A stretch of 62,776 bases of DNA from Candidatus Omnitrophota bacterium (GTDB taxonomy: Bacteria > Omnitrophota > Gorgyraeia > Gygaellales > Profunditerraquicolaceae). The position numbers were made by a program, and so were the translations under genes. Position 1 is the stretch's first letter. Each line of letters begins with the position of its first letter. Under the pieces are notes generated by a model, which was not told where the DNA came from, made no database searches, and saw only the letters and a list, made by a program, of their open reading frames with translations. Of the stretch, positions 4,603 through 28,309 are shown piece after piece. The stretch lies in assembly GCA_030691865.1 (NCBI GenBank), contig JAUYDL010000016.1, forward strand, positions 1 to 62,776, written 5' to 3'.

Positions 4603-5127
4603 ATGTCTAAAGCAATAGCTACAGAAGTTATCGCTACAAGGATTTTTGAGATAAGAAGCAGAAAAGTAATGCTGGATTATGATTTAGCTAAGCTTTATGG
4701 AGTTTCAACCAAAGTTCTAAATCAGGCAGTAAAAAGGAATGCGAGAAGGTTCCCGGGAGATTTTATGTTTAGATTGACAGAGAAAGAAAAAGAAGAGGTG
4801 GTCACAAATTGTGACCACCTTCGGTTTCTGAGATTTTCTTATCAGTTGCCATATGTATTCACTGAACAAGGCGTGGCTATGCTCTCTAGCGTCTTAAGCA
4901 GCGAAAGAGCCATTCAGGTTAATATCTTGATTATGCGGGCATTTACCAAATTGAGGGAAATTCTCCTAACCCATAAAGAACTGGCAGTAAAAATTGAGGC
5001 CCTGGAGAGAAAGTATGCCGAGCATGACCAAACCATAAAGTCTATATTTGGCGCAATTAAGCAACTTTTGGAGCCGTCTCCGGTTAAAGAGAAGAAAATA
5101 ATAGGGTTTCATATTGAAAGAAAATAG
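4603..5127 (+). CDS. ORF6N domain (KilA-N-like DNA-binding) protein
   Basis: IFEIRSRKVMLDYDLAKLYGVSTKVLNQAVKRNARRFPGDFMFRLTEKE is the typical ORF6N signature. GAGGAGG RBS before the ATG. Confidence 0.8.
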   Translation: MSKAIATEVIATRIFEIRSRKVMLDYDLAKLYGVSTKVLNQAVKRNARRFPGDFMFRLTEKEKEEVVTNCDHLRFLRFSYQLPYVFTEQGVAMLSSVLSSERAIQVNILIMRAFTKLREILLTHKELAVKIEALERKYAEHDQTIKSIFGAIKQLLEPSPVKEKKIIGFHIERK

Positions 5128-5156
5128 GACTTTGTTTACTATTAAAGGATATTTCT

Positions 5157-6194
5157 ATGGAAAAATTCTTAAAAGATTATGAAGTTGGGGATCAGGTTAT
5201 TGACAACTTAATCGGCCAACTGGCCAAGAAATCCGGTTCTCTTGAAACTGAATATTTATTACGCGAAATATTGACTACCAGTGTTAAGTTAGGTAAGGAG
5301 TCTATTGATCGAGGAGACCTTAAGCTGGTAAATAATACACTCAAAGAACTGCGTTATTCTTTAAAGGTATTCTCTCCCTATCGCGCCATTAAAAAGGTAA
5401 TCATTTTTGGGTCAGCTCGGTCAAAAAATAATTCCGCTGAATATAAGATGGCGGAAGAGCTCTCCCGGAAATTAACTGAAAAAGGATATATGATTGTAAC
5501 CGGCGGCGGCCTCGGGGTAATGGAGGCCGGGAATAAGGGTGCCGGATCCGGCAAAGATTTTGCGCTTAATATCCGTCTTCCTTTTGAGCAGAAACCCAAC
5601 CCCTATATTGACGAAAAAGGAAAATTGATCAACTTTAAATATTTCTTTACCCGAAAATTGATTTTTGTCAAAGAGACGGATGCCACTGCTCTTTTTCCGG
5701 GAGGATTCGGCACGCTGGATGAGGGGTTTGAAATGATCACCTTAATGCAAACCGGTAAATCCCGGCCCCGGCCAATAGTTTTAATGGAGCCGAAAGGTTC
5801 AACCTACTGGGCTACCTGGTTGCATTTTGTAAAGAGCCAGTTGGTTAAAAAGGGATTTATTAAAAAAGAAGATCTTAGTCTCTTTGCGATTGTAAAAACT
5901 GCGGATCAAGCAGTTAGATACATCGAGGATTTTTACCGGGTATATCACTCGATAAGATATGTTTTGGGCCTGGCGGTATTAAGATTAAATCGAGAGATTT
6001 CTGAGAAGACGCTCAAGTTTATAAATAAGAAATTTAAAGACATTTTGACTAGTGGCCAAATCAAGGTTTCGCCTCCTACACCCAAAGAAATCCAAGAAAA
6101 AGAATTCCTTAACTTGCCTCGGTTAGTGATGAACTTTAATCTGCGTGATTATGGCCGGCTTTGTGAAATGATTAAGGTTATTAATAAAGATTAA
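5157..6194 (+). CDS. LOG family / TIGR00730-type Rossmann-fold nucleotide-binding protein (possible nucleotide 5'-monophosphate nucleosidase)
   Basis: VIIFGSAR, TGGGLGVMEAGNKGA, PGGFGTLDEGFE motifs; 345 aa with N- and C-terminal extensions. Confidence 0.8.
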   Translation: MEKFLKDYEVGDQVIDNLIGQLAKKSGSLETEYLLREILTTSVKLGKESIDRGDLKLVNNTLKELRYSLKVFSPYRAIKKVIIFGSARSKNNSAEYKMAEELSRKLTEKGYMIVTGGGLGVMEAGNKGAGSGKDFALNIRLPFEQKPNPYIDEKGKLINFKYFFTRKLIFVKETDATALFPGGFGTLDEGFEMITLMQTGKSRPRPIVLMEPKGSTYWATWLHFVKSQLVKKGFIKKEDLSLFAIVKTADQAVRYIEDFYRVYHSIRYVLGLAVLRLNREISEKTLKFINKKFKDILTSGQIKVSPPTPKEIQEKEFLNLPRLVMNFNLRDYGRLCEMIKVINKD

Positions 6195-6213: not shown

Positions 6214-9200
6214 ATGGATAAAGTATTAGAGGGATTAAATAAGGAGCAGGTGCAGGCGGTTACGCATAAAGACGGGCCGCTGTTGATTATTGCCGGCGCA
6301 GGAACAGGCAAGACCCGGGTGATTACTCAGCGTATTGCCTGGTTGATTAACCAGGGGCTGTCTAAGACCGATGAAATCCTAGCGCTTACTTTTACCGATA
6401 AGGCAGCCAAAGAAATGCAGGAACGGGTGGATATCTTGATGCCGTATGGCTATACAGATATTTGGATTTCTACATTTCATGCTTTTGGTGACCGCGTCTT
6501 GCGTGAAAATGCTTTAGTTGCCGGGCTTAATCCGGATTTTAAGGTATTGGCTCAGCCGGAAGCCGCCGTATTCTTCCGCGAACACCTCTTTGAATTTACG
6601 CTTGATTATTACCGGCCGCTGGCTGAACCTACCCGTTTTATCGAGGCTTTGATTTCATTTTTTAGCCGGGCCAAAGATGAAGATATTTCAGCCAAGGAGT
6701 ATTTAAAATATGCCCAGGATTTTTTAATTCAGGCTAAAGCTAATCCGCTTGATAAGGCCAATGAAGAGTTGGCAGTGCAGCAGATGGAGGTGGCTGCAGC
6801 TTACGCTAAATATCAGGAGCTTCTGGCTGAAGAAGGCCTGGTGGATTTTGGCAATCAGTTTTATTTAAGTTTAGGGCTCTTGCGCCAGCACCCTTTGATC
6901 CTGCAAAATTACCAGAAACAATTTAAATATATTTTAGTTGATGAATTCCAGGATACTAACTTTGCGCAGTTTCAGATTGTAAAACTTCTTGCCGGCAGCT
7001 TAAAAAATGTTACCGTTGTCGGAGATGATGATCAGTGTTTACCAGAAGACTCTTTAATTGAGACTCCTGTAGGAAAGAAGCAAATAAAAGAGATAAAAGA
7101 GGGGGATGAGGTATTAACTGCGGTAGGAAAATCCCACATAGGAATTTCTAAAGTTAAAAAAGTATTTAGAAGACAGAAGAAAGCGCGGTTTATAACCTTT
7201 AAGACTAAAAGCGGTAGAAAAATAACAGTTACATCAGAGCATAAGATGTTTTGTTATGTTCCGCCTTGGCCTAAAAAATTAAAAGATAAAATTTATTATG
7301 TGTATTTAATGTGGAAAAAAGGTTTAGGTTGGCGTTTAGGTATTACTAATGATCTGGCGGTTAGATTAAAATTAGAGCGTTCGGCAGATAAAATTGTGGG
7401 CTTGCGTGCTTTTAAAACTGAACGCGAAGCCCAGTATCTAGAAGTATATTTATCTTTGAAATATGGAATACCCACAGCATGTTTTAAAGAACGTAAGGGT
7501 ATTCTTATTACAGATGAATGGTTGGAAAAACTTTATAAAGAGTTGCATACAGAAGAGGGGGTAAGAAAACTAGCTGAAGATTTAGATATTAATTTAGATT
7601 TCCATCATTATTGTTTAGCCGCAGTTACCAGAGGTATTAAGGTTAGAGTAAAAATAAATCTCCATTTTTGTTACCGTAAATACATACATTGTGTAACTCT
7701 TGAGACTTCGGATGAGGAAACTTTGGATAAAATTAGGAAAATAGGATTAAGGTTAAAGAAAACTAAAAAAGCTCAAACCTTAAGGTATTGTTTTACAGAT
7801 ATAAACAAAGCAGAAAATTTTGCTTTTAGGCTAAAGGAGTTGACAGATGGAATTTTGGAATATAAGTTTACATTGGCTAAGTTTAATATCGTTAATTTAC
7901 CGGCCCTTATGATGCCGGCTTCAAATGTTTTATTGGGCCACTATTTACCGATTAAGAAAGATGCCAATATTGTTTATGATAGAATTGTTGGCGTTGAGGA
8001 AGAAGTCAAGCAAGATACAGTTTATGATTTAGAAATCGAAAAGACGCATAATTATATAGCTAATGAGGTAGTTGTTCATAATTGTATTTATCGTTGGCGC
8101 GGAGCTGCCTACAGTAATCTTGTAAATTTTAACAAAGAGTATCCTGATGCAGAAAATATCACCCTGATTCAGAATTATCGTTCTACGCAGGCTATTCTGG
8201 ATAGCGCTTATCAGTTGATCCAAAATAATAACCCGGAGCGTTTTGAAGTAAAAGCCAATATTGATAAACACCTTGTTGGTTTGACTAAAGAAGGAGGAAA
8301 GCCAATCCATTTACATTTTGATACGCATTCGGCTGAAGCTGACCAAGTAAGTAAGATTATACAAGATAAAGTAAGTTTAGAAAAGTTTAAGTACAGAGAT
8401 TTTGCTATTTTGGTGCGCTCGAATTCTGACGCCCAAGGTTTTATCCAGTCGTTAAATATGCAGAATATTCCCTGGCAGTTTAGCGGCAATCAGGGTTTAT
8501 ATGCCCGGGGCGAGGTTAAGTTGTGTATTAATTTTCTGCGGGTAATTGCCAATCCTTCGGATTCATTAAGTTTATATTACCTGGTGAGTTCTGAGATTTA
8601 TAAAGTAAATTTAGCGGACCTGGCATTATGCAATCATTTCGCCCGGCGCAGGAACCGCACGCTTTATGCGGTGTTTAGCGATTTAGAAAAAATCCCGGAG
8701 TTGGCCGAAGTTTGCGATCAGACCAAGGAGAAAATAAGACAGATACTTTTAGGGATTGAAAAATTTCTGCAGGTTTCCCGTGATGAGACTACCGGCAAAC
8801 TGCTTTACAGTTTTCTTACTGATACCGGTTATCTTAAATATTTAACGCATGATCCTACTTTAGAAAAAGAAACTAAGATCCAGAATATCGCTAAGTTTTT
8901 CAATCAGGTGCGGGATTTTGAGTTGGTGGCTAAAGAGGACCGGGTAATTAGCTTTATCAAGCATCTTAATCTGCTGATTGATTCAGGGGATGACCCGCCG
9001 ACGGTGGAGGCAGACTTAGATCAGGATGCGGTGAATATCCTGACTATTCATAAAGCTAAGGGACTGGAGTTTAGGGTAGTGTTTTTAGTCAGCCTGGTGC
9101 AGGGTAAATTTCCGCTCCCGAAGCGTTCAGTGCAAATCGGACTGCCGGATTGTTTGATTAAAGAGGTTCTGCCTACCGGAGATTTCCATACGCAGGAGGA

Positions 9201-10170
9201 GCGCCGGCTTTTTTACGTAGGGATGACGCGTTCTAAAGACCAATTATATCTGAGTAGTGCCGATGATTACGGCGGCAAGCGTTTACGTAAGGTGAGCCAG
9301 TTTGTACTGGAGGCTTTAGGTAAACAGCCTGAGACAGCGCCAAAGAAAAAGACCTCAAGCCTGGAGAGTATCCAGCGTTTTGCTCCGGTTAAGGAGTTGC
9401 CCAAGTCTGTTCTTGGAAAAATTGCCGAAGATAAGTTGGTTTCCTTAAGTTATTATCAGATTGATGATTATCTGACCTGTCCTCTAAAATATAAATATGT
9501 AAATATTTTGCGCGTGCCGATTATGGAGCATCATACGGTTATTTACGGCCGGGCCATGCATGAGGCGGTAAGCCAATATTTGCTGCGTAAGCTTGATGGC
9601 AGTAAGTTTACCCTGGATCAGCTCCTGGATTGTTTTGAAGCTAATTTTGATCCTCAGGGGTTTCTGGATACTAATCATCAAGAGGAACGTTTCCGCATCG
9701 GCAGAGAGGCTTTAGTTAGATTCTATAAGGATGAAGAAAAACGCAGTTTGGTTCCTAAATTTATTGAAAAAGAATTTTCTTTTGTGATTGGCGACAATAA
9801 GATCAGCGGCAGGTTTGACCGTATAGATATGGCAAAGGATGGGGCGGTGATTATGGATTTTAAGACCTCAGCGATTAAGACTCAAGAAGCTGCGGATAAG
9901 CGGGTCAAAGAAAGCAAACAGTTGGCGCTTTATGCTTTGGCTTACCAGCATATTTTCGGGGTAATGCCTGCGGCTGTAGAGTTGTATTTTCTGGAATCCG
10001 GGATTATCGGCAGGCATGAGCTTAGCGAAGAGGACTTAGATGATGTCAAAGAGGATATCCTGGAGGTTTCCGCGGGGATTCGCCAGCAAGATTATCCGGC
10101 TAAACCCGAATATAAGGCTTGCACCTATTGCGCTTACAATCAAATATGCCCTCAGGCGGTAATGCGTTAA
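6214..10170 (+). CDS. intein-containing UvrD/PcrA-type SF1 helicase fused to a C-terminal Cas4/AddB-like PD-(D/E)XK Fe-S nuclease domain
   Basis: Helicase motifs: Walker A AGAGTGKT, LVDEFQDTN, motif III VVGDDDQ...CIYRWRGA (split), NYRST, TIHKAKGLEF, YVGMTRSK. Nuclease motifs: C-PLKYKY, GRFDRID, MDFKTS, QLALYA, CTYCAYNQIC. Confidence 0.9.
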   Translation: MDKVLEGLNKEQVQAVTHKDGPLLIIAGAGTGKTRVITQRIAWLINQGLSKTDEILALTFTDKAAKEMQERVDILMPYGYTDIWISTFHAFGDRVLRENALVAGLNPDFKVLAQPEAAVFFREHLFEFTLDYYRPLAEPTRFIEALISFFSRAKDEDISAKEYLKYAQDFLIQAKANPLDKANEELAVQQMEVAAAYAKYQELLAEEGLVDFGNQFYLSLGLLRQHPLILQNYQKQFKYILVDEFQDTNFAQFQIVKLLAGSLKNVTVVGDDDQCLPEDSLIETPVGKKQIKEIKEGDEVLTAVGKSHIGISKVKKVFRRQKKARFITFKTKSGRKITVTSEHKMFCYVPPWPKKLKDKIYYVYLMWKKGLGWRLGITNDLAVRLKLERSADKIVGLRAFKTEREAQYLEVYLSLKYGIPTACFKERKGILITDEWLEKLYKELHTEEGVRKLAEDLDINLDFHHYCLAAVTRGIKVRVKINLHFCYRKYIHCVTLETSDEETLDKIRKIGLRLKKTKKAQTLRYCFTDINKAENFAFRLKELTDGILEYKFTLAKFNIVNLPALMMPASNVLLGHYLPIKKDANIVYDRIVGVEEEVKQDTVYDLEIEKTHNYIANEVVVHNCIYRWRGAAYSNLVNFNKEYPDAENITLIQNYRSTQAILDSAYQLIQNNNPERFEVKANIDKHLVGLTKEGGKPIHLHFDTHSAEADQVSKIIQDKVSLEKFKYRDFAILVRSNSDAQGFIQSLNMQNIPWQFSGNQGLYARGEVKLCINFLRVIANPSDSLSLYYLVSSEIYKVNLADLALCNHFARRRNRTLYAVFSDLEKIPELAEVCDQTKEKIRQILLGIEKFLQVSRDETTGKLLYSFLTDTGYLKYLTHDPTLEKETKIQNIAKFFNQVRDFELVAKEDRVISFIKHLNLLIDSGDDPPTVEADLDQDAVNILTIHKAKGLEFRVVFLVSLVQGKFPLPKRSVQIGLPDCLIKEVLPTGDFHTQEERRLFYVGMTRSKDQLYLSSADDYGGKRLRKVSQFVLEALGKQPETAPKKKTSSLESIQRFAPVKELPKSVLGKIAEDKLVSLSYYQIDDYLTCPLKYKYVNILRVPIMEHHTVIYGRAMHEAVSQYLLRKLDGSKFTLDQLLDCFEANFDPQGFLDTNHQEERFRIGREALVRFYKDEEKRSLVPKFIEKEFSFVIGDNKISGRFDRIDMAKDGAVIMDFKTSAIKTQEAADKRVKESKQLALYALAYQHIFGVMPAAVELYFLESGIIGRHELSEEDLDDVKEDILEVSAGIRQQDYPAKPEYKACTYCAYNQICPQAVMR
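7036..8082 (+). mobile_element. intein (349 codons) inserted in helicase motif III
   Basis: Starts with Cys1 in CLPEDSLIETPVG (block A). Block B is VTSEHKMF (TxxH). Ends VYDLEIEKTHNYIANEVVVHN followed by Cys+1 at 8083. Flanking exteins rejoin to the UvrD consensus GDDDQ-CIYRWRGA. Confidence 0.85.
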
Positions 10171-22322: not shown

Positions 22323-22333
22323 ATTTAGTAATT

Positions 22334-22457
22334 AATCTTTGGGGCAAGGTGAAAATCCTTACCGGCGGTTTAGCCCGCGAGTCAGCCATTGATTCAATGG
22401 TAGACAGATCTGGTGAAATTCCAGGGCCGATGGTGACAGTCCAGATGAGAGAAGATT
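22334..22457 (+). ncRNA. FMN riboswitch (RFN element) aptamer
   Basis: ATCTTTGGGGCAAGGTGAAAATCCTTACCGGCGGT..AGCCCGCGAG...GATCTGGTGAAATTCCAGGGCCGATGGTGACAGTCCAGATGAGAGAAGATT. P1 is ATCTT/AAGAT. Lies upstream of ribBA. Confidence 0.9.
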
Positions 22458-22505
22458 AAAATCAATACGCCCGAAGATTTTGTTTAGGGTTTTTTTATTG
22501 AGGCC

Positions 22506-22645: not shown

Positions 22646-23854
22646 GTGTTCAATTCAATCCCAGAAATTTTAGAAGACTTAAAAGCCGGGTTAATGGCCA
22701 TTGTCGTTGACGATGAAGATCGTGAGAACGAGGGTGATTTAGTGATGGCAGCATCAAGCGTTAAATCCGCAGACATTAACTTTATGGCTAAATTTGGCCG
22801 GGGCCTGATTTGTGTTCCCATGGAGGAGGAGAGGTTGCGTTTCCTGGAGCTTGATCTTATGCTTAAGAATACCTTACAAGCTGGCAATGAGGATCCTTTT
22901 AAGACCGCATGGATGATTTCTGTTGATGCCGCTAAAGGGGTCTCAACCGGTATCTCTGTTGGAGATCGGGCCAGAACAATTGAAGTTTTAATTAATGCGC
23001 AAACCAAACCGGAAGACCTGGTGCGTCCCGGGCACATTTTTCCTTTACGTTCGCGCCGCGGCGGAGTCCTGGTCAGGGCAGGGCATACTGAAGCCAGCCT
23101 GGATTTAATGCGGCTGGCCGGGCTTTATCCGGCAGGAGTGATTTGCGAAATTATGAATGATGACGGCAGTATGGCCCGTATGGAGCAACTTTTAGAGTTT
23201 GCGCGTAAGCATGTTTTAAAGATTTGTACGATTGCCAGCCTTATTGAATATCGCCGCAGGAGCGAGAAGCTGGTGGAGGCAATTGTGCAGACCAAATTGC
23301 CCACGAAATTTGGCGAGTTTAAGTTAATTGTTTATCGCGATCAAACCAATAATCAGACGCACATTGCTTTGTGTATGGGGAGTTGGTCGCTTGAATCGAT
23401 ATTGGTACGCGTACATTCAGAATGTTTAACCGGGGAGGTTTTTGGCTCATTGCGATGTGACTGCGGAAGGCAATTAGAGAAGGCGATGCAGATGATTGCT
23501 CTGGAGAAAAAAGGCGTGATCCTTTATATGAATCAAGAAGGCCGCGGCATCGGATTAGTCGAGAAGCTGCGTGCGTACAACCTTCAGGATAACGGGATGG
23601 ATACGGTAGAGGCCAATGAGGCATTGGGACATAAGGCGGATTTACGCGATTACGGCATTGGCGCCCAGATTCTTGTAGATTTAGGGATCAAACAGATCAG
23701 GCTGTTAACTAATAATCCGCGCAAGATTGTCGGCCTGGAAGGTTATGGTTTAAAGGTTTCACAGCGGGTACCTTTAGAGATTGAGCCTAACGCTCAGAAT
23801 TATAAATACCTTAAAACAAAAAAAGAAAAGTTGGGGCATCATATAGATATTTAA
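22646..23854 (+). CDS. ribBA: bifunctional 3,4-dihydroxy-2-butanone-4-phosphate synthase / GTP cyclohydrolase II
   Basis: N-terminal half VVDDEDRENEGDL. C-terminal half RVHSECLTGEVFGSLRCDCG and QEGRGIGL. GTG start after GGAG. Confidence 0.93.
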   Translation: MFNSIPEILEDLKAGLMAIVVDDEDRENEGDLVMAASSVKSADINFMAKFGRGLICVPMEEERLRFLELDLMLKNTLQAGNEDPFKTAWMISVDAAKGVSTGISVGDRARTIEVLINAQTKPEDLVRPGHIFPLRSRRGGVLVRAGHTEASLDLMRLAGLYPAGVICEIMNDDGSMARMEQLLEFARKHVLKICTIASLIEYRRRSEKLVEAIVQTKLPTKFGEFKLIVYRDQTNNQTHIALCMGSWSLESILVRVHSECLTGEVFGSLRCDCGRQLEKAMQMIALEKKGVILYMNQEGRGIGLVEKLRAYNLQDNGMDTVEANEALGHKADLRDYGIGAQILVDLGIKQIRLLTNNPRKIVGLEGYGLKVSQRVPLEIEPNAQNYKYLKTKKEKLGHHIDI

Positions 23855-28231: not shown

Positions 28232-28309
28232 CGGGAAGTAGCGTAGTTTGGCTAGCGCGCGACGTTCGGGACGTCGAGGTCGTGGGTTCGAATCCCACCT
28301 TCCCGACCA
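28232..28309 (+). tRNA. tRNA-Pro (anticodon CGG), CCA encoded
   Basis: Hand-folded cloverleaf: acceptor CGGGAAG/CTTCCCG, D-stem GCGT/GCGC, anticodon stem CGACG/CGTCG with loop TTCGGGA, T-arm GTGGG-TTCGAAT-CCCAC, discriminator A plus CCA. Confidence 0.9.

What the first reader, a model, noticed from the sequence alone, without database searches (positions are those of the whole stretch)
7036..8082. Intein in helicase motif III whose central domain looks GIY-YIG/T5orf172-like rather than LAGLIDADG or HNH
Seen in sequence:
- The UvrD/PcrA motif III is split as VVGDDDQ | 349 codons | CIYRWRGA.
- The insert starts with Cys1 (CLPEDSLIETPVG), contains a TxxH block (VTSEHKMF), and ends ...VYDLEIEKTHNYIANEVVVHN directly before Cys+1.

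Established knowledge: these are the block A/B/F/G signatures of a class 1 intein. Intein-free UvrD-family proteins carry a contiguous GDxxQSIYxFRGA.

Inference:
- The roughly 200 residues between the splicing blocks show no LAGLIDADG dodecapeptides and no HNH motif that I can see.
- Instead, KIYYVYLMWKKGLGWRLGITNDLAVRLKLE...EREAQYLEVYLSLKYG...TDEWLEKLYKEL resembles the GIY-YIG-superfamily T5orf172/MUG113 pattern: an aromatic-x-Y strand, then (K/R)(I/L)GxT, a conserved Arg, and a later Glu.
- A contiguous intein carrying such a homing module would be unusual.
Basis: partly seen in the sequence, partly recalled or inferred. Interest (0 to 1): 0.8.

Follow-up and report, generated by a model that had tools for sequence, protein, structure and literature searches.

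The report
Helicase intein with GIY-YIG-like nuclease
A self-splicing protein insert (intein) in a bacterial DNA helicase carries, in place of the usual LAGLIDADG or HNH homing nuclease, a conserved but unannotated module whose front half looks like a divergent GIY-YIG nuclease, and I found no description of such a nuclease built in-frame into an intein.

Summary
Window 7036-8082 encodes a 349-aa class 1 intein (Cys1, TxxH, terminal HN, Cys+1) that splits motif III of a 1318-aa UvrD/PcrA-type helicase-nuclease. Removing it in silico restores one full-length helicase domain match.

The central 220 aa hit no Pfam, PHROG, NCBIfam or PDB sequence on their own. They belong to a large uncurated family (330 clusters at 50% identity), nearly always in inteins at this helicase site, including coliphage helicases.

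An AlphaFold model (pLDDT 92) shows two halves. The N-half has the beta-beta-alpha-beta-alpha GIY-YIG topology, with invariant Tyr, Arg, Gly, Arg, Glu and Glu in GIY / (R)IG / Arg / Glu register. Supporting evidence:
- 14 of 86 members weakly hit Pfam GIY-YIG.
- Foldseek recovers many GIY-YIG, T5orf172 and MUG113 proteins.
- hhalign ranks I-TevII first of 277 T4 ORFs.

No curated threshold is met. The C-half is an unassigned, probably DNA-binding fold. LAGLIDADG and HNH are excluded.

The intein looks mobile. Its GC is 33% against 44% in the exteins, and all 80 closest metagenomic orthologues lack it, one with an identical 30-bp empty site.

This is a new variant of a known kind.

The parts
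6214..10170 (+). Host gene: precursor of a UvrD/PcrA-type SF1 helicase fused to a C-terminal PD-(D/E)XK (Cas4/RecB-like) nuclease domain, 1318 aa including the intein
   Evidence: Pfam UvrD-helicase 3e-69, UvrD_C 2e-54, PDDEXK_1 8e-36. NCBIfam best match is pcrA, below the equivalog cutoff.
6214..7035 (+). N-extein (aa 1-274), ending ...VTVVGDDDQ, the first half of helicase motif III
   Evidence: The helicase HMM matches stop at residue 275.
7036..8082 (+). Class 1 intein, 349 aa, read in the same frame as the helicase
   Evidence: Pfam and TIGRFAM intein models score above their cutoffs. In-silico excision restores a single UvrD-helicase match covering profile positions 1-271 of 271. GC is 32.8% against 43-44% in the exteins. 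No other ORF longer than 59 aa lies inside on either strand.
7036..7260 (+). Intein N-terminal splicing region (intein aa 1-75): block A with Cys1 (7036-7038), and block B TSEH (T66, H69)
   Evidence: TIGR01445 matches aa 1-72 and Hint matches aa 1-73. Codons checked.
7261..7596 (+). Module N-half (module aa 1-112 = intein aa 76-187): GIY-YIG-like putative catalytic head. Invariant residues are Y15 (7303-7305), R25 (7333-7335), G27 (7339-7341), R35 (7363-7365), E39 (7375-7377) and E61 (7441-7443).
   Evidence: Invariant columns in alignments of 37 and 86 sequences. AF2 topology is b(12-19)-b(23-29)-a(32-38)-b(44-51)-a(54-68) plus two helices, with pLDDT above 90. PF01541 is hit by 14 of 86 members. 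Foldseek recovers GIY-YIG-clan proteins. hhalign to I-TevII is in register. pN is 0.17, as constrained as the helicase.
7597..7920 (+). Module C-half (module aa 113-220): unassigned b-b-a-b-a-b-b domain, inferred to be the DNA-binding/target-recognition tail
   Evidence: Confident AF2 model. It is conserved across the motif III inteins but absent from the motif V inteins that keep only the N-half. No Pfam, PDB or LAGLIDADG match. The function is an inference.
7921..8082 (+). Intein C-terminal splicing region (intein aa 296-349): block F VYDLEIEKTHNYIAN and block G VVVHN
   Evidence: TIGR01443 matches aa 329-349. PDB DnaB mini-intein aligns to aa 295-348.
8083..10170 (+). C-extein, starting with Cys+1 (TGT 8083-8085) in CIYRWRGA, the second half of motif III. 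It continues through the helicase C-domain and the PD-(D/E)XK nuclease (about 9442-10152).
   Evidence: Cys at +1 is native to this helicase lineage: 77 of 80 intein-less orthologues have it.

Best explanation
Window 7036-8082 is a mobile class 1 intein inserted in helicase motif III of a UvrD/PcrA-type helicase-nuclease, probably in a Candidatus Omnitrophota-like bacterium.

After translation, the Hint splicing domain should excise the 349-aa intein and join ...GDDDQ to CIYRWRGA..., giving a functional 969-aa helicase. This step is inferred from intact catalytic residues and was not tested. The residues are Cys1, the TxxH block, the terminal His-Asn and Cys+1.

A 220-aa homing module is built in-frame between the splicing halves. 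Its N-terminal roughly 110 aa form a divergent GIY-YIG-superfamily nuclease head. It resembles T5orf172 in having Arg-Ile/Val-Gly where canonical enzymes have Tyr-Ile-Gly. The proposed active-site residues are Y15, R25, R35, E39 and E61 in module numbering. Its C-terminal roughly 110 aa form a separate beta-rich domain that most likely recognises the DNA target.

By analogy with I-TevI-type enzymes, the free intein would bind the uninterrupted motif III coding sequence of an intein-less allele and cut it with one-metal GIY-YIG chemistry. Double-strand-break repair would then copy the intein in. This step is an inference.

Shown here: the intein anatomy, precise insertion, the family and its conservation, the fold, foreign base composition, and sporadic distribution with intact empty sites in close relatives.

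Inferred: splicing activity, nuclease activity, the cleavage site and the role of the C-half.
For: Intein:
- Curated models score above their cutoffs.
- Junction residues are intact.
- In-silico splicing gives one full-length PF00580 match at 255.9 bits, against 234 bits in two pieces before.

Module family:
- phmmer over 1.84 billion representatives gives 330 hits at E<=1e-3 and 18 at E<=1e-30.
- Nearly all lie between GDxxQ|C and HN|[S/C]IYxFRGA.
- Y15, M17, R25, G27, R35, E39 and E61 are invariant.

Fold:
- The AF2 model has pLDDT 92 and pTM 0.83, and its N-half is beta-beta-alpha-beta-alpha.
- That matches the GIY-YIG description of three strands flanked by helices, with GIY, YIG, Arg and Glu in that order (PMC1564403).

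Homology signal:
- PF01541 is hit by 14 of 86 members (best E 0.0029), and no other family by more than 3.
- Scans of the full module add T5orf172 and MUG113 hits.
- In the NCBIfam control, no family is hit by more than 1 member.
- After three same-module phage proteins, the Foldseek BFVD list is rich in GIY-YIG, T5orf172, MUG113 and intron-endonuclease entries, with probability up to 0.99 and rmsd 3.4-3.8 A over 75-104 columns.
- hhalign ranks I-TevII first of 277 T4 ORFs (P 0.0018). The score improves to E 4e-4 with a three-sequence family profile, in GIY/YIG/Glu register.

Function maintained:
- pN is 0.17 for the N-half, against 0.15-0.18 for the helicase and 0.24-0.28 for the splicing regions.

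Mobility:
- GC is 32.8% (GC3 26%) against 43-44% (GC3 45%) in the exteins.
- All 80 best metagenomic orthologues (72-93% identity) are intein-less, and L021 has an identical 30-bp empty site.
- A more distant orthologue, L002, carries a 64%-identical intein at the same site.
- The same module occurs in inteins at helicase motifs II and V, and as a free-standing ORF splitting a phage helicase gene.
Against: - No curated GIY-YIG-clan model reaches its threshold for any member, and the window's own sequence gives no hit at all.
- Profile searches against PDB sequences find no GIY-YIG enzyme.
- hhalign to an I-TevI-subfamily profile is not significant (E 0.09), and SegA and SegF give noise.
- Foldseek against PDB has no hit at E<=1e-3. 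The GIY-YIG-clan hits in BFVD have E values of only 0.01-0.1.
- The canonical YIG tyrosine is replaced by Arg, and the conserved Asn of canonical enzymes was not identified.
- T5orf172 domains were first annotated as DNA-binding, so the fold does not prove catalysis.
- The 0-of-80 intein-less count may be biased, because the tool ranks contiguous matches first.
- No experiment was possible.
Confidence: 0.75

Rival explanations
1. It is a real intein, but the central module is not a working nuclease. It would be a GIY-YIG/T5orf172-fold domain kept for DNA binding, regulation of splicing, or structural reasons, and the intein would no longer home.
For: No curated nuclease model is matched. The YIG Tyr is replaced by Arg, and no conserved Asn was found. 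From my own knowledge, T5orf172 was originally described as a DNA-binding domain. In L002 the intein's composition has converged on its host's, as expected for a long-resident element.
Against: The residues that are invariant across about 150 representatives under 50% identical to each other are the ones that map to GIY-YIG catalytic positions (Tyr, Arg, Glu), not just hydrophobic core. The window's copy is compositionally foreign and absent from all 80 closest orthologues, which argues for recent movement. The same head occurs at three helicase sites and as a free-standing gene that fractures a helicase, typical homing-endonuclease behaviour.
Confidence: 0.12
2. The module is a nuclease of a new fold family that only resembles GIY-YIG by convergence, sharing a small beta-beta-alpha-beta-alpha core with Tyr, Arg and Glu. 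It would not be a member of that superfamily.
For: All sequence links are sub-threshold. Foldseek E-values to GIY-YIG proteins are 0.01-0.1. The core is small, and similar secondary-structure orders can arise independently.
Against: Three independent Pfam models of one clan are the ones hit, by 14 of 86 and 7 of 37 members, while the control library shows no recurrent family. The motif order, spacing and secondary-structure placement all agree. The hhalign score rises when the target becomes a profile.
Confidence: 0.08
3. The central region is a degenerate LAGLIDADG (or HNH) homing endonuclease, the ordinary intein case, too decayed to recognise.
For: The top Foldseek PDB rows are LAGLIDADG enzymes I-LtrI, I-LtrWI and I-OnuI. 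LAGLIDADG is by far the commonest intein nuclease.
Against: Those Foldseek rows have rmsd 16-18 A, TM about 0.2 and probability 0.09-0.18. No LAGLIDADG or HNH Pfam hit appears in 37 + 86 members, whereas genuine LAGLIDADG inteins in the same host proteins score 1e-14 to 1e-17. hhalign of either half against those LAGLIDADG domains is noise. The module is strongly conserved, not decaying.
Confidence: 0.03
4. The insert is not an intein but a lineage-specific insertion domain of the helicase that stays in the mature protein.
For: Nothing positive. Splicing has simply not been observed experimentally.
Against: All class 1 splicing residues are present, and the curated models are above threshold. 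The insert interrupts the invariant motif III between Q and C/S. The closest orthologues lack it precisely, to the codon.
Confidence: 0.01

Closest known systems
Canonical bifunctional inteins with an in-frame LAGLIDADG or HNH homing endonuclease (e.g. PI-SceI; HNH inteins of Dalgaard et al. 1997)
   Same: The architecture is the same: Hint splicing halves flank a homing module inserted at the usual place between blocks B and F. The intein sits in a highly conserved nucleotide-binding motif of a DNA-metabolism enzyme. Its distribution is sporadic.
   Different: The nuclease module is neither LAGLIDADG nor HNH. It has a small catalytic head plus a separate tail, the bipartite layout typical of GIY-YIG enzymes.
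GIY-YIG homing endonucleases of group I introns and free-standing phage genes (I-TevI, I-TevII, Seg proteins; Pfam PF01541)
   Same: It shares the beta-beta-alpha-beta-alpha core and the order Tyr strand, xIG strand, Arg helix, Glu helix. The layout is modular, with a catalytic head and a DNA-binding tail, and the behaviour is mobile.
   Different: It is fused in-frame inside an intein, not encoded in an intron or as a separate gene. The YIG Tyr is Arg. The R+4 position is an invariant Glu where I-TevI has His31. No NUMOD or HTH tail is present. It scores below every curated threshold, and hhalign to the I-TevI subfamily is not significant.
T5orf172 (PF10544) / MUG113 (PF13455) branch of the GIY-YIG clan, abundant as free-standing phage homing genes (PMC10448857)
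   Same: It has a basic residue in place of the YIG tyrosine, (K/R)-I-G-x-T, followed by a conserved Arg. The family motif is recalled from memory and is a lead only. Members give sub-threshold hits to both models, and Foldseek recovers T5orf172 and MUG113 proteins.
   Different: Only 2 of 37 and 1 of 37 members hit, at E about 0.03. Those families are free-standing, not intein-borne.
'Fractured genes': split inteins with a free-standing GIY-YIG or Vsr-like endonuclease gene between the halves (Dassa et al. 2009, PMC2677866; AceL NrdHF, PMC7891396)
   Same: A GIY-YIG-type nuclease is associated with an intein insertion site in a DNA-metabolism gene. A relative of this module (P0061, L093) likewise sits as its own ORF between two halves of a helicase.
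   Different: Here the nuclease is contiguous and in-frame with an intact cis-splicing intein. [quoted passage not shown] In L093 the ORF keeps degenerate Hint parts rather than flanking split-intein halves.
Non-canonical actinobacteriophage inteins (Gosselin et al. 2025 preprint, 10.1101/2025.01.02.630785)
   Same: Both are inteins whose homing nuclease is not LAGLIDADG, found largely in phage or mobile contexts.
   Different: Those cases are in-frame HNH, antisense LAGLIDADG, antisense Vsr-like, or out-of-frame EndoVII-like. Here there is no alternative ORF, and the in-frame module itself folds confidently.
Annotated UvrD/Rep helicase inteins (16 UvrD inteins in Novikova et al. 2016, PMC4760082; BASEL coliphages Bas62/JohannJBalmer, MZ501084)
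   Same: The host family is the same and, for the phages, so is the motif III site and the module.
   Different: Those sources record only 'intein'. No nuclease type is assigned, and database names for relatives are 'hypothetical protein' or 'PcrA'.

Membership tests
Class 1 intein (Hint superfamily) | Block A nucleophile (Cys/Ser/Thr) as first residue | tested here: met
   Cys1, TGT at 7036-7038. Of the 88 family copies with a recognisable motif III N-junction, 85 start with Cys.
Class 1 intein (Hint superfamily) | Block B TxxH | tested here: met
   T66-S-E-H69.
Class 1 intein (Hint superfamily) | Blocks F/G ending in His-Asn, followed by Cys/Ser/Thr at +1 | tested here: met
   ...THNYIANEVVVHN|C. 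TIGR01443 scores 27.1 bits against a cutoff of 15.6.
Class 1 intein (Hint superfamily) | Curated profile thresholds | tested here: met
   PF14890 scores 85.5 against a cutoff of 35.8, PF01079 32.4 against 29.7, and TIGR01445 38.3 against 24.5.
Class 1 intein (Hint superfamily) | Precise in-frame insertion in a conserved host motif, with orthologues lacking it | tested here: met
   In-silico splicing restores PF00580 positions 1-271 of 271 in one stretch. All 80 orthologues have contiguous ..DDDQ|CIYRWRGA.
Class 1 intein (Hint superfamily) | Protein splicing activity | not testable with these tools
   Needs expression and detection of the 969-aa ligated product plus the free intein.
GIY-YIG superfamily (Pfam clan; PF01541) | Curated HMM gathering threshold | tested here: not met
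   The window sequence gives no hit at E<=10. The best family member scores E 0.0029, and 14 of 86 members give sub-threshold hits.
GIY-YIG superfamily (Pfam clan; PF01541) | 'GIY' strand with conserved Tyr | tested here: met
   V-Y15 is invariant on beta 1. It aligns to the FTY of I-TevII.
GIY-YIG superfamily (Pfam clan; PF01541) | 'YIG' strand (Tyr-Ile-Gly) | tested here: inconclusive
   The I/V-G27 part is invariant on beta 2, but the Tyr position is an invariant Arg (R25), preceded by an aromatic residue. This is a variant form, as I recall for T5orf172's K-I-G.
GIY-YIG superfamily (Pfam clan; PF01541) | Conserved Arg on the first helix | tested here: met
   R35 is invariant and lies in helix 32-38.
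GIY-YIG superfamily (Pfam clan; PF01541) | Metal-binding Glu on the helix after beta 3 | tested here: met
   E61 is invariant in helix 54-68. It aligns with the Glu of I-TevII (KHE) and with I-TevI E75 in local hhalign matches.
GIY-YIG superfamily (Pfam clan; PF01541) | Conserved Asn downstream of the Glu | tested here: inconclusive
   There is no invariant Asn in the alignments. The conserved stretch after the helix is Y68-G-I-P71-T..F75.
GIY-YIG superfamily (Pfam clan; PF01541) | Three-stranded sheet flanked by helices (beta-beta-alpha-beta-alpha) and structural similarity to known members | tested here: inconclusive
   The topology is met in a model with pLDDT 92. Foldseek BFVD recovers many GIY-YIG-clan proteins at probability up to 0.99 but E 0.01-0.1. 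In PDB, only 1zg2 appears, at rank 38. The two-domain query dilutes the scores, and the N-half could not be searched alone.
GIY-YIG superfamily (Pfam clan; PF01541) | Mg2+-dependent DNA cleavage | not testable with these tools
   Needs biochemistry.
T5orf172 (PF10544) / MUG113 (PF13455) | Curated HMM threshold | tested here: not met
   Two of 37 members (E 0.03) and 1 of 37 (E 0.038), all sub-threshold. None appears among the listed families in the N-half-only scan.
LAGLIDADG homing endonucleases | LAGLIDADG helices / Pfam LAGLIDADG_1-3, Hom_end | tested here: not met
   No hit in the window sequence or in 37 + 86 relatives. The positive control, other inteins in the same host proteins, scores 1e-14 to 1e-17. 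hhalign gives noise, and the Foldseek rows have rmsd about 17 A.
HNH homing endonucleases | HNH motif / Pfam HNH families | tested here: not met
   No hit at E<=10. hhalign to T4 MobB and MobC gives noise.
Homing (mobile) genetic element | Sporadic presence among close relatives, with intact empty target sites | tested here: met
   None of the 80 closest orthologues carries it. L021's empty site is identical over 30 bp, and five others differ by 1 base. It is present in the more distant L002. Caveat: the tool may rank contiguous matches first.
Homing (mobile) genetic element | Foreign base composition | tested here: met
   GC is 32.8% and GC3 26%, against 43-44% and about 45% in the flanking exteins.

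The most novel reading that the evidence does not exclude
This window holds a member of a previously undescribed, widespread class of inteins whose in-frame homing nuclease derives from the GIY-YIG superfamily. That would be an additional nuclease type for contiguous inteins, beside LAGLIDADG and HNH.

The class specialises in the conserved motifs II, III and V of SF1 helicases in bacteria and phages, including culturable coliphages. It has a swappable DNA-recognition tail. It has also given rise to free-standing, intein-derived nuclease genes that fracture helicase genes.
Probability: 0.6. Interest if true: 0.75.

Novelty: new variant of a known kind. Interest (0 to 1): 0.66.

Why it matters
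Those sources say GIY-YIG enzymes occur only in group I introns, as free-standing genes, or between split-intein halves (PMC1564403, PMC2677866, 10.1101/2025.01.02.630785).

- **Origin of inteins.** A contiguous intein with a GIY-YIG-type head would show that this nuclease family has also colonised Hint domains. That supports the view that bifunctional inteins arise repeatedly by invasion of mini-inteins by different homing genes.
- **Annotation.** It gives a name to about 200 unannotated residues in hundreds of 'UvrD/PcrA' or 'hypothetical' proteins, and argues for a new curated family.
- **Testability.** The same module sits in helicase inteins of culturable E. coli phages (phi92-like and BASEL phages), so splicing, cleavage and homing could be tested in a standard system.
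- **Possible use.** GIY-YIG heads act as monomers and tolerate target variation, so a new head-plus-tail pair aimed at a universally conserved helicase motif could interest nuclease engineers.

Tried and rejected
- **Direct profile searches of the central 220 aa.** Pfam, PHROGs and NCBIfam gave nothing.
- **Single-sequence AlphaFold of the whole intein.** pLDDT was 34, so the model was unusable.
- **Word-indexed homologue search.** It returned only 1 hit with a single query and 4 with a profile. The exhaustive HMMER search was needed.
- **Profile searches against PDB sequences.** Neither the whole module nor the N-half found a nuclease.
- **Foldseek against PDB.** No hit at E<=1e-3. The LAGLIDADG rows at the top were rejected: rmsd about 17 A, probability below 0.2.
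- **hmmsearch of T4 ORFs with the N-half HMM.** I-TevII ranked only second, at E 0.08.
- **hhalign to other T4 proteins.** SegA, SegF and nine negative controls gave noise.
- **hhalign to a 10-sequence I-TevI-subfamily profile.** Not significant (E 0.09). Only the beta 3 + Glu helix aligned, so the module is not an I-TevI-type enzyme.
- **hhalign of either half to real LAGLIDADG intein domains, and N-half against C-half.** Noise, so there is no internal duplication.
- **NCBIfam per-member scan.** No recurrent family. I used it as a null control.
- **Exact-protein look-up of the window's helicase.** Not on record.
- **dN/dS.** Synonymous sites are saturated, so only pN could be compared.
- **Hidden nuclease ORF.** An out-of-frame or antisense nuclease ORF inside the intein is ruled out.


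Full report
**1. The observation**

ORF 6214-10170 (+) encodes a 1318-aa protein. Pfam finds a UvrD-helicase N-domain, UvrD_C and a C-terminal PD-(D/E)XK nuclease domain.

Window 7036-8082 translates to exactly 349 codons. They begin CLPEDSLIETPVG, contain VTSEHKMF, and end VYDLEIEKTHNYIANEVVVHN. The flanks are VVGDDDQ and CIYRWRGA.

The insert passes the curated thresholds of four intein models:

| Model | Score (bits) | Cutoff (bits) |
|---|---|---|
| Pfam Intein_splicing | 85.5 | 35.8 |
| Pfam Hint | 32.4 | 29.7 |
| TIGR01445 (N-terminal region) | 38.3 | 24.5 |
| TIGR01443 (C-terminal region) | 27.1 | 15.6 |

The nearest PDB sequences are DnaB and gp41-1 mini-inteins. They align only to residues 5-80 and 295-349.

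Deleting the 349 codons in silico gives a 969-aa protein. In it, PF00580 matches as one stretch covering profile positions 1-271 of 271, at 255.9 bits. Before deletion it matched in two stretches at 234 bits.

**2. The central region is a family, not filler**

Intein residues 76-295 (window 7261-7920) hit nothing in Pfam, PHROGs or NCBIfam. The word-indexed homologue search found only one fragment.

An exhaustive phmmer search over 1.84 billion cluster representatives gave 330 proteins at E<=1e-3, 78 at E<=1e-10 and 18 at E<=1e-30. In the 150 proteins returned, the module lies almost always about 80 residues after GDxxQ|C and about 55 residues before HN|[S/C]IYxFRGA. That is inside inteins at the same motif III site of SF1 helicases. 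The median intein length is 360 aa, and the +1 residue is Ser in 85 copies and Cys in 15.

A local profile shows that the whole roughly 210-residue module is conserved. In alignments of 37 and 86 diverse members, these columns are invariant or nearly so (module numbering; aa 1 = intein aa 76): Y15, M17, G23, R25, G27, R35, E39, A57, E61, Y68, P71 and F75. The window's copy has all of them.

**3. What the module looks like**

With the 37-sequence alignment, AlphaFold2 gave a confident model: mean pLDDT 92, pTM 0.83. The single-sequence run had failed at pLDDT 34. The model has two halves.

- **N-half.** The order is strand 12-19, strand 23-29, helix 32-38, strand 44-51, helix 54-68, then two more helices.
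  - Y15 lies on strand 1, and R25 and G27 on strand 2.
  - R35 lies on helix 1, with E39 just after it.
  - E61 lies on helix 2.
- **C-half (131-216).** The order is strand-strand-helix-strand-helix-strand-strand.

The N-half matches the published description of the GIY-YIG domain. That description is three strands flanked by helices, with the GIY and YIG motifs first, an Arg in the centre and a Glu towards the C-terminus (PMC1564403).

**4. Tests of the GIY-YIG link**

- **(a) Per-member Pfam scans.**
  - For the full module, GIY-YIG was hit by 4 of 37 members, T5orf172 by 2 of 37 and MUG113 by 1 of 37. All three belong to one clan.
  - For the N-half alone, PF01541 was hit by 14 of 86 members (best E 0.0029), while no other family was hit by more than 3.
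  - As a null control, the same 86 sequences against NCBIfam produced no family hit by more than one member.
- **(b) Foldseek against viral models.**
  - The top three hits are the same module inside a phage helicase and a phage methyltransferase (E 3e-12 to 6.5e-6).
  - Below them is a list rich in GIY-YIG endonucleases, T5orf172, MUG113 and intron-associated endonucleases. Probabilities reach 0.99 and rmsd is 3.4-3.8 A over 75-104 columns, but E is only 0.01-0.1.
- **(c) hhalign of the N-half profile against T4 proteins.**
  - I-TevII aligns over 66 columns at E 0.0018, with YVYLM on FTYMV, GYRIG on SFYIG, and EA..xE on SALKHE.
  - It ranks first of all 277 six-frame ORFs in T4 1-50 kb.
  - The score improves to E 4.3e-4 (probability 34%) against a three-sequence I-TevII-family profile, in the same register.
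- **(d) Negative or weak results.**
  - SegA and SegF give noise.
  - A 10-sequence I-TevI-subfamily profile gives E 0.09, aligning only strand 3 and the Glu helix. I verified the I-TevI probe sequence at 100% identity in the database.
  - Profile searches against PDB sequences find no nuclease.
  - Foldseek against PDB has no hit at E<=1e-3, and the GIY-YIG protein 1zg2 appears only at rank 38.

Taken together, the module's N-half is best read as a divergent branch of the GIY-YIG superfamily. It has Arg in place of the YIG tyrosine, as I recall for the K-I-G of T5orf172. It is not a member of PF01541 or PF10544 by their curated thresholds.

LAGLIDADG and HNH are excluded:
- No Pfam hit appears in 123 scanned sequences, whereas genuine LAGLIDADG inteins elsewhere in the same host proteins score 1e-14 to 1e-17.
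- hhalign to those domains is noise.
- The LAGLIDADG rows at the top of the PDB Foldseek list have rmsd about 17 A and probability below 0.2.
- No ORF longer than 59 aa lies hidden in another frame or on the other strand. The nuclease is therefore in-frame, unlike the out-of-frame and antisense cases reported in 2025.

**5. Is it functional and mobile?**

*Selection.* I compared the window with its syntenic orthologue L002, from a Candidatus Omnitrophota MAG. L002 carries a 364-aa, 64%-identical intein at the same site. Synonymous sites are saturated (pS about 0.8). The non-synonymous differences (pN) are:

| Region | pN |
|---|---|
| Module N-half | 0.17 |
| Helicase core | 0.15-0.18 |
| Module C-half | 0.22 |
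| Intein splicing regions | 0.24-0.28 |

The head is therefore as constrained as the helicase itself.

*Composition.* The window's intein is compositionally foreign. GC is 32.8% and GC3 26%, against 43-44% and about 45% in both exteins.

*Distribution.* A metagenome scan with the spliced extein returned 80 orthologues at 72-93% identity.
- All are about 970 aa where complete and have an uninterrupted ..DDDQ|CIYRWRGA.
- 77 of the 80 have Cys at +1, so that Cys is native to the lineage.
- L021's 30-bp site is identical to the window's two flanks joined, and five others differ by one base.
- Caveat: the tool keeps the best 80 of 276 relatives and may favour contiguous matches.

*Other contexts for the same head.*
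- It occurs in inteins at helicase motif II (VDE|C...HN|CQD) and motif V (GTxH|C...HN|STKG). The motif V copies keep only the N-half, which shows that head and tail are separable.
- It occurs in helicase inteins of 39 phage genomes. These include phi92-like and BASEL coliphages, where 'intein' is annotated without a nuclease type, and IMG/VR contigs.
- It occurs in P0061, a free-standing ORF with degenerate Hint parts (no Cys1, no HN). P0061 sits between two genes that encode the halves of a phage helicase, broken just before motif III.

All of this is typical homing-endonuclease behaviour.

**6. Mechanism proposed**

- **Shown:** the anatomy, precise insertion, conservation, fold, composition and distribution.
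- **Inferred from established intein chemistry:**
  - Cys1 performs an N-S acyl shift.
  - Trans-thioesterification to Cys+1 follows.
  - Asn349 cyclises, assisted by His348, and an S-N shift completes splicing.
  - The result is the 969-aa helicase and a free 40-kDa intein.
- **Inferred by analogy with GIY-YIG enzymes:**
  - The C-half, possibly helped by the Hint domain, binds the uninterrupted motif III coding sequence.
  - The head cuts both strands by one-metal chemistry. Y15 would act as general base, R35 (and R25) would stabilise the transition state, and E61 would bind Mg2+. E39 occupies the position of I-TevI His31.
  - Recombinational repair then copies the intein into the cut allele.
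- The highly conserved nucleotides that encode GDDDQ/(C/S)IYxFRGA would explain why one intein family can spread across very diverse SF1 helicases.

**7. Comparison with what is known, and novelty**

- UvrD inteins are known (16 in PMC4760082). The phage ones are annotated only as inteins.
  - It states that GIY-YIG enzymes had not been found in inteins (PMC1564403).
  - GIY-YIG genes are reported only as free-standing ORFs between split-intein halves.
  - A 2025 survey adds Vsr-like and EndoVII-like nucleases in other frames.
- Four literature searches found no description of this module, and database names are uninformative.
- Subscription-only literature was not searchable, so an earlier description cannot be excluded.

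I rate it a new variant of a known kind: an intein plus a homing nuclease, with a nuclease family not previously reported in that position. It is not categorically new.

**8. Verdict and confidence**

| Claim | Confidence |
|---|---|
| The insert is an intein | about 0.97 |
| The N-half belongs to the GIY-YIG superfamily | about 0.8 |
| The intein is an active or recently active homing element | about 0.6-0.7 |
| Overall explanation | 0.75 |

Interest is 0.66. A specialist would find it notable and directly testable in coliphages, but it extends existing concepts and does not overturn them.

Noticed in passing
L093 2540-6531 (metagenome contig ERZ27315476 k141_444286); protein P0061: A 378-aa ORF consists of degenerate Hint parts plus the full module, with no Cys1, no terminal HN and a TTG start. 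It lies between two separate genes for the N- and C-halves of a UvrD-like helicase, broken just before motif III, in a phage-like context. It looks like an intein-derived free-standing nuclease that has 'fractured' the helicase gene. P0045 and P0098 look similar.
   Followed up: partly
Proteins P0131, P0150, P0128: Inteins carrying the same catalytic head also sit in helicase motif II (VDE|C...HN|CQD) and motif V (GTxH|C...HN|STKG), sometimes two or three per helicase. The motif V copies keep only the N-half of the module, which implies a swappable target-recognition tail.
   Followed up: partly
window 8083-8085; loci L013-L092: The Cys at the intein's +1 position is native to this helicase lineage: 77 of 80 intein-less orthologues read ...DDDQCIYRWRGA, whereas most UvrD-family proteins have Ser there. 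In 51 of the 80, the Gly of GDDDQ is Ala (ADDDQ).
   Followed up: partly
window 7036-8082 versus L002 4776-5867: The window's intein has 33% GC in a 44% GC gene. The 64%-identical intein at the same site in the Omnitrophota orthologue has host-like composition (39% against 40-44%). This suggests independent or repeated invasion rather than simple vertical descent.
   Followed up: partly
BFVD entry A0A8S5TZY8: A phage protein named 'adenine specific DNA methyltransferase' (782 aa) matches the module's N-half (126 columns, E 6.5e-6). The head may therefore also occur in genes other than helicases. The sequence could not be retrieved.
   Followed up: no
Protein P0081: A 332-aa protein has the module directly after a tryptophanyl-tRNA-synthetase-like fragment (KMSKS motif) with no Hint part. 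It may be a frameshift, a chimera, or another host gene.
   Followed up: no
window 4603-6194 versus L002: Relative to the ArgS-RecJ-helicase order in L002, the window has two extra ORFs between the RecJ-sized gene and the helicase: 4603-5127 (174 aa) and 5157-6194 (345 aa). The second carries a PGGFGTLDE motif that, from memory, resembles LOG-family proteins. The window's first two genes were matched to ArgS and RecJ only by size and order.
   Followed up: no
window 22331-22460 (+): An FMN riboswitch (RF00050, 113.7 bits) lies upstream of ORF 22646-23854, and a tRNA gene lies at 28232-28306 (+).
   Followed up: no
whole window: Of 50 ORFs of at least 150 aa, 48 are on the + strand, and GC skew is positive throughout (0.09-0.23). 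This is consistent with one replichore's leading strand.
   Followed up: no
window 7597-7920 (module C-half): A confidently modelled b-b-a-b-a-b-b domain has conserved Pro-His (His-His in the window), Arg, His, Gly and Arg positions but matches no known family. The only hint is a weak Foldseek match to the T4 MotA C-terminal 'double-wing' DNA-binding domain (1kaf: probability 0.69, 53 columns).
   Followed up: partly
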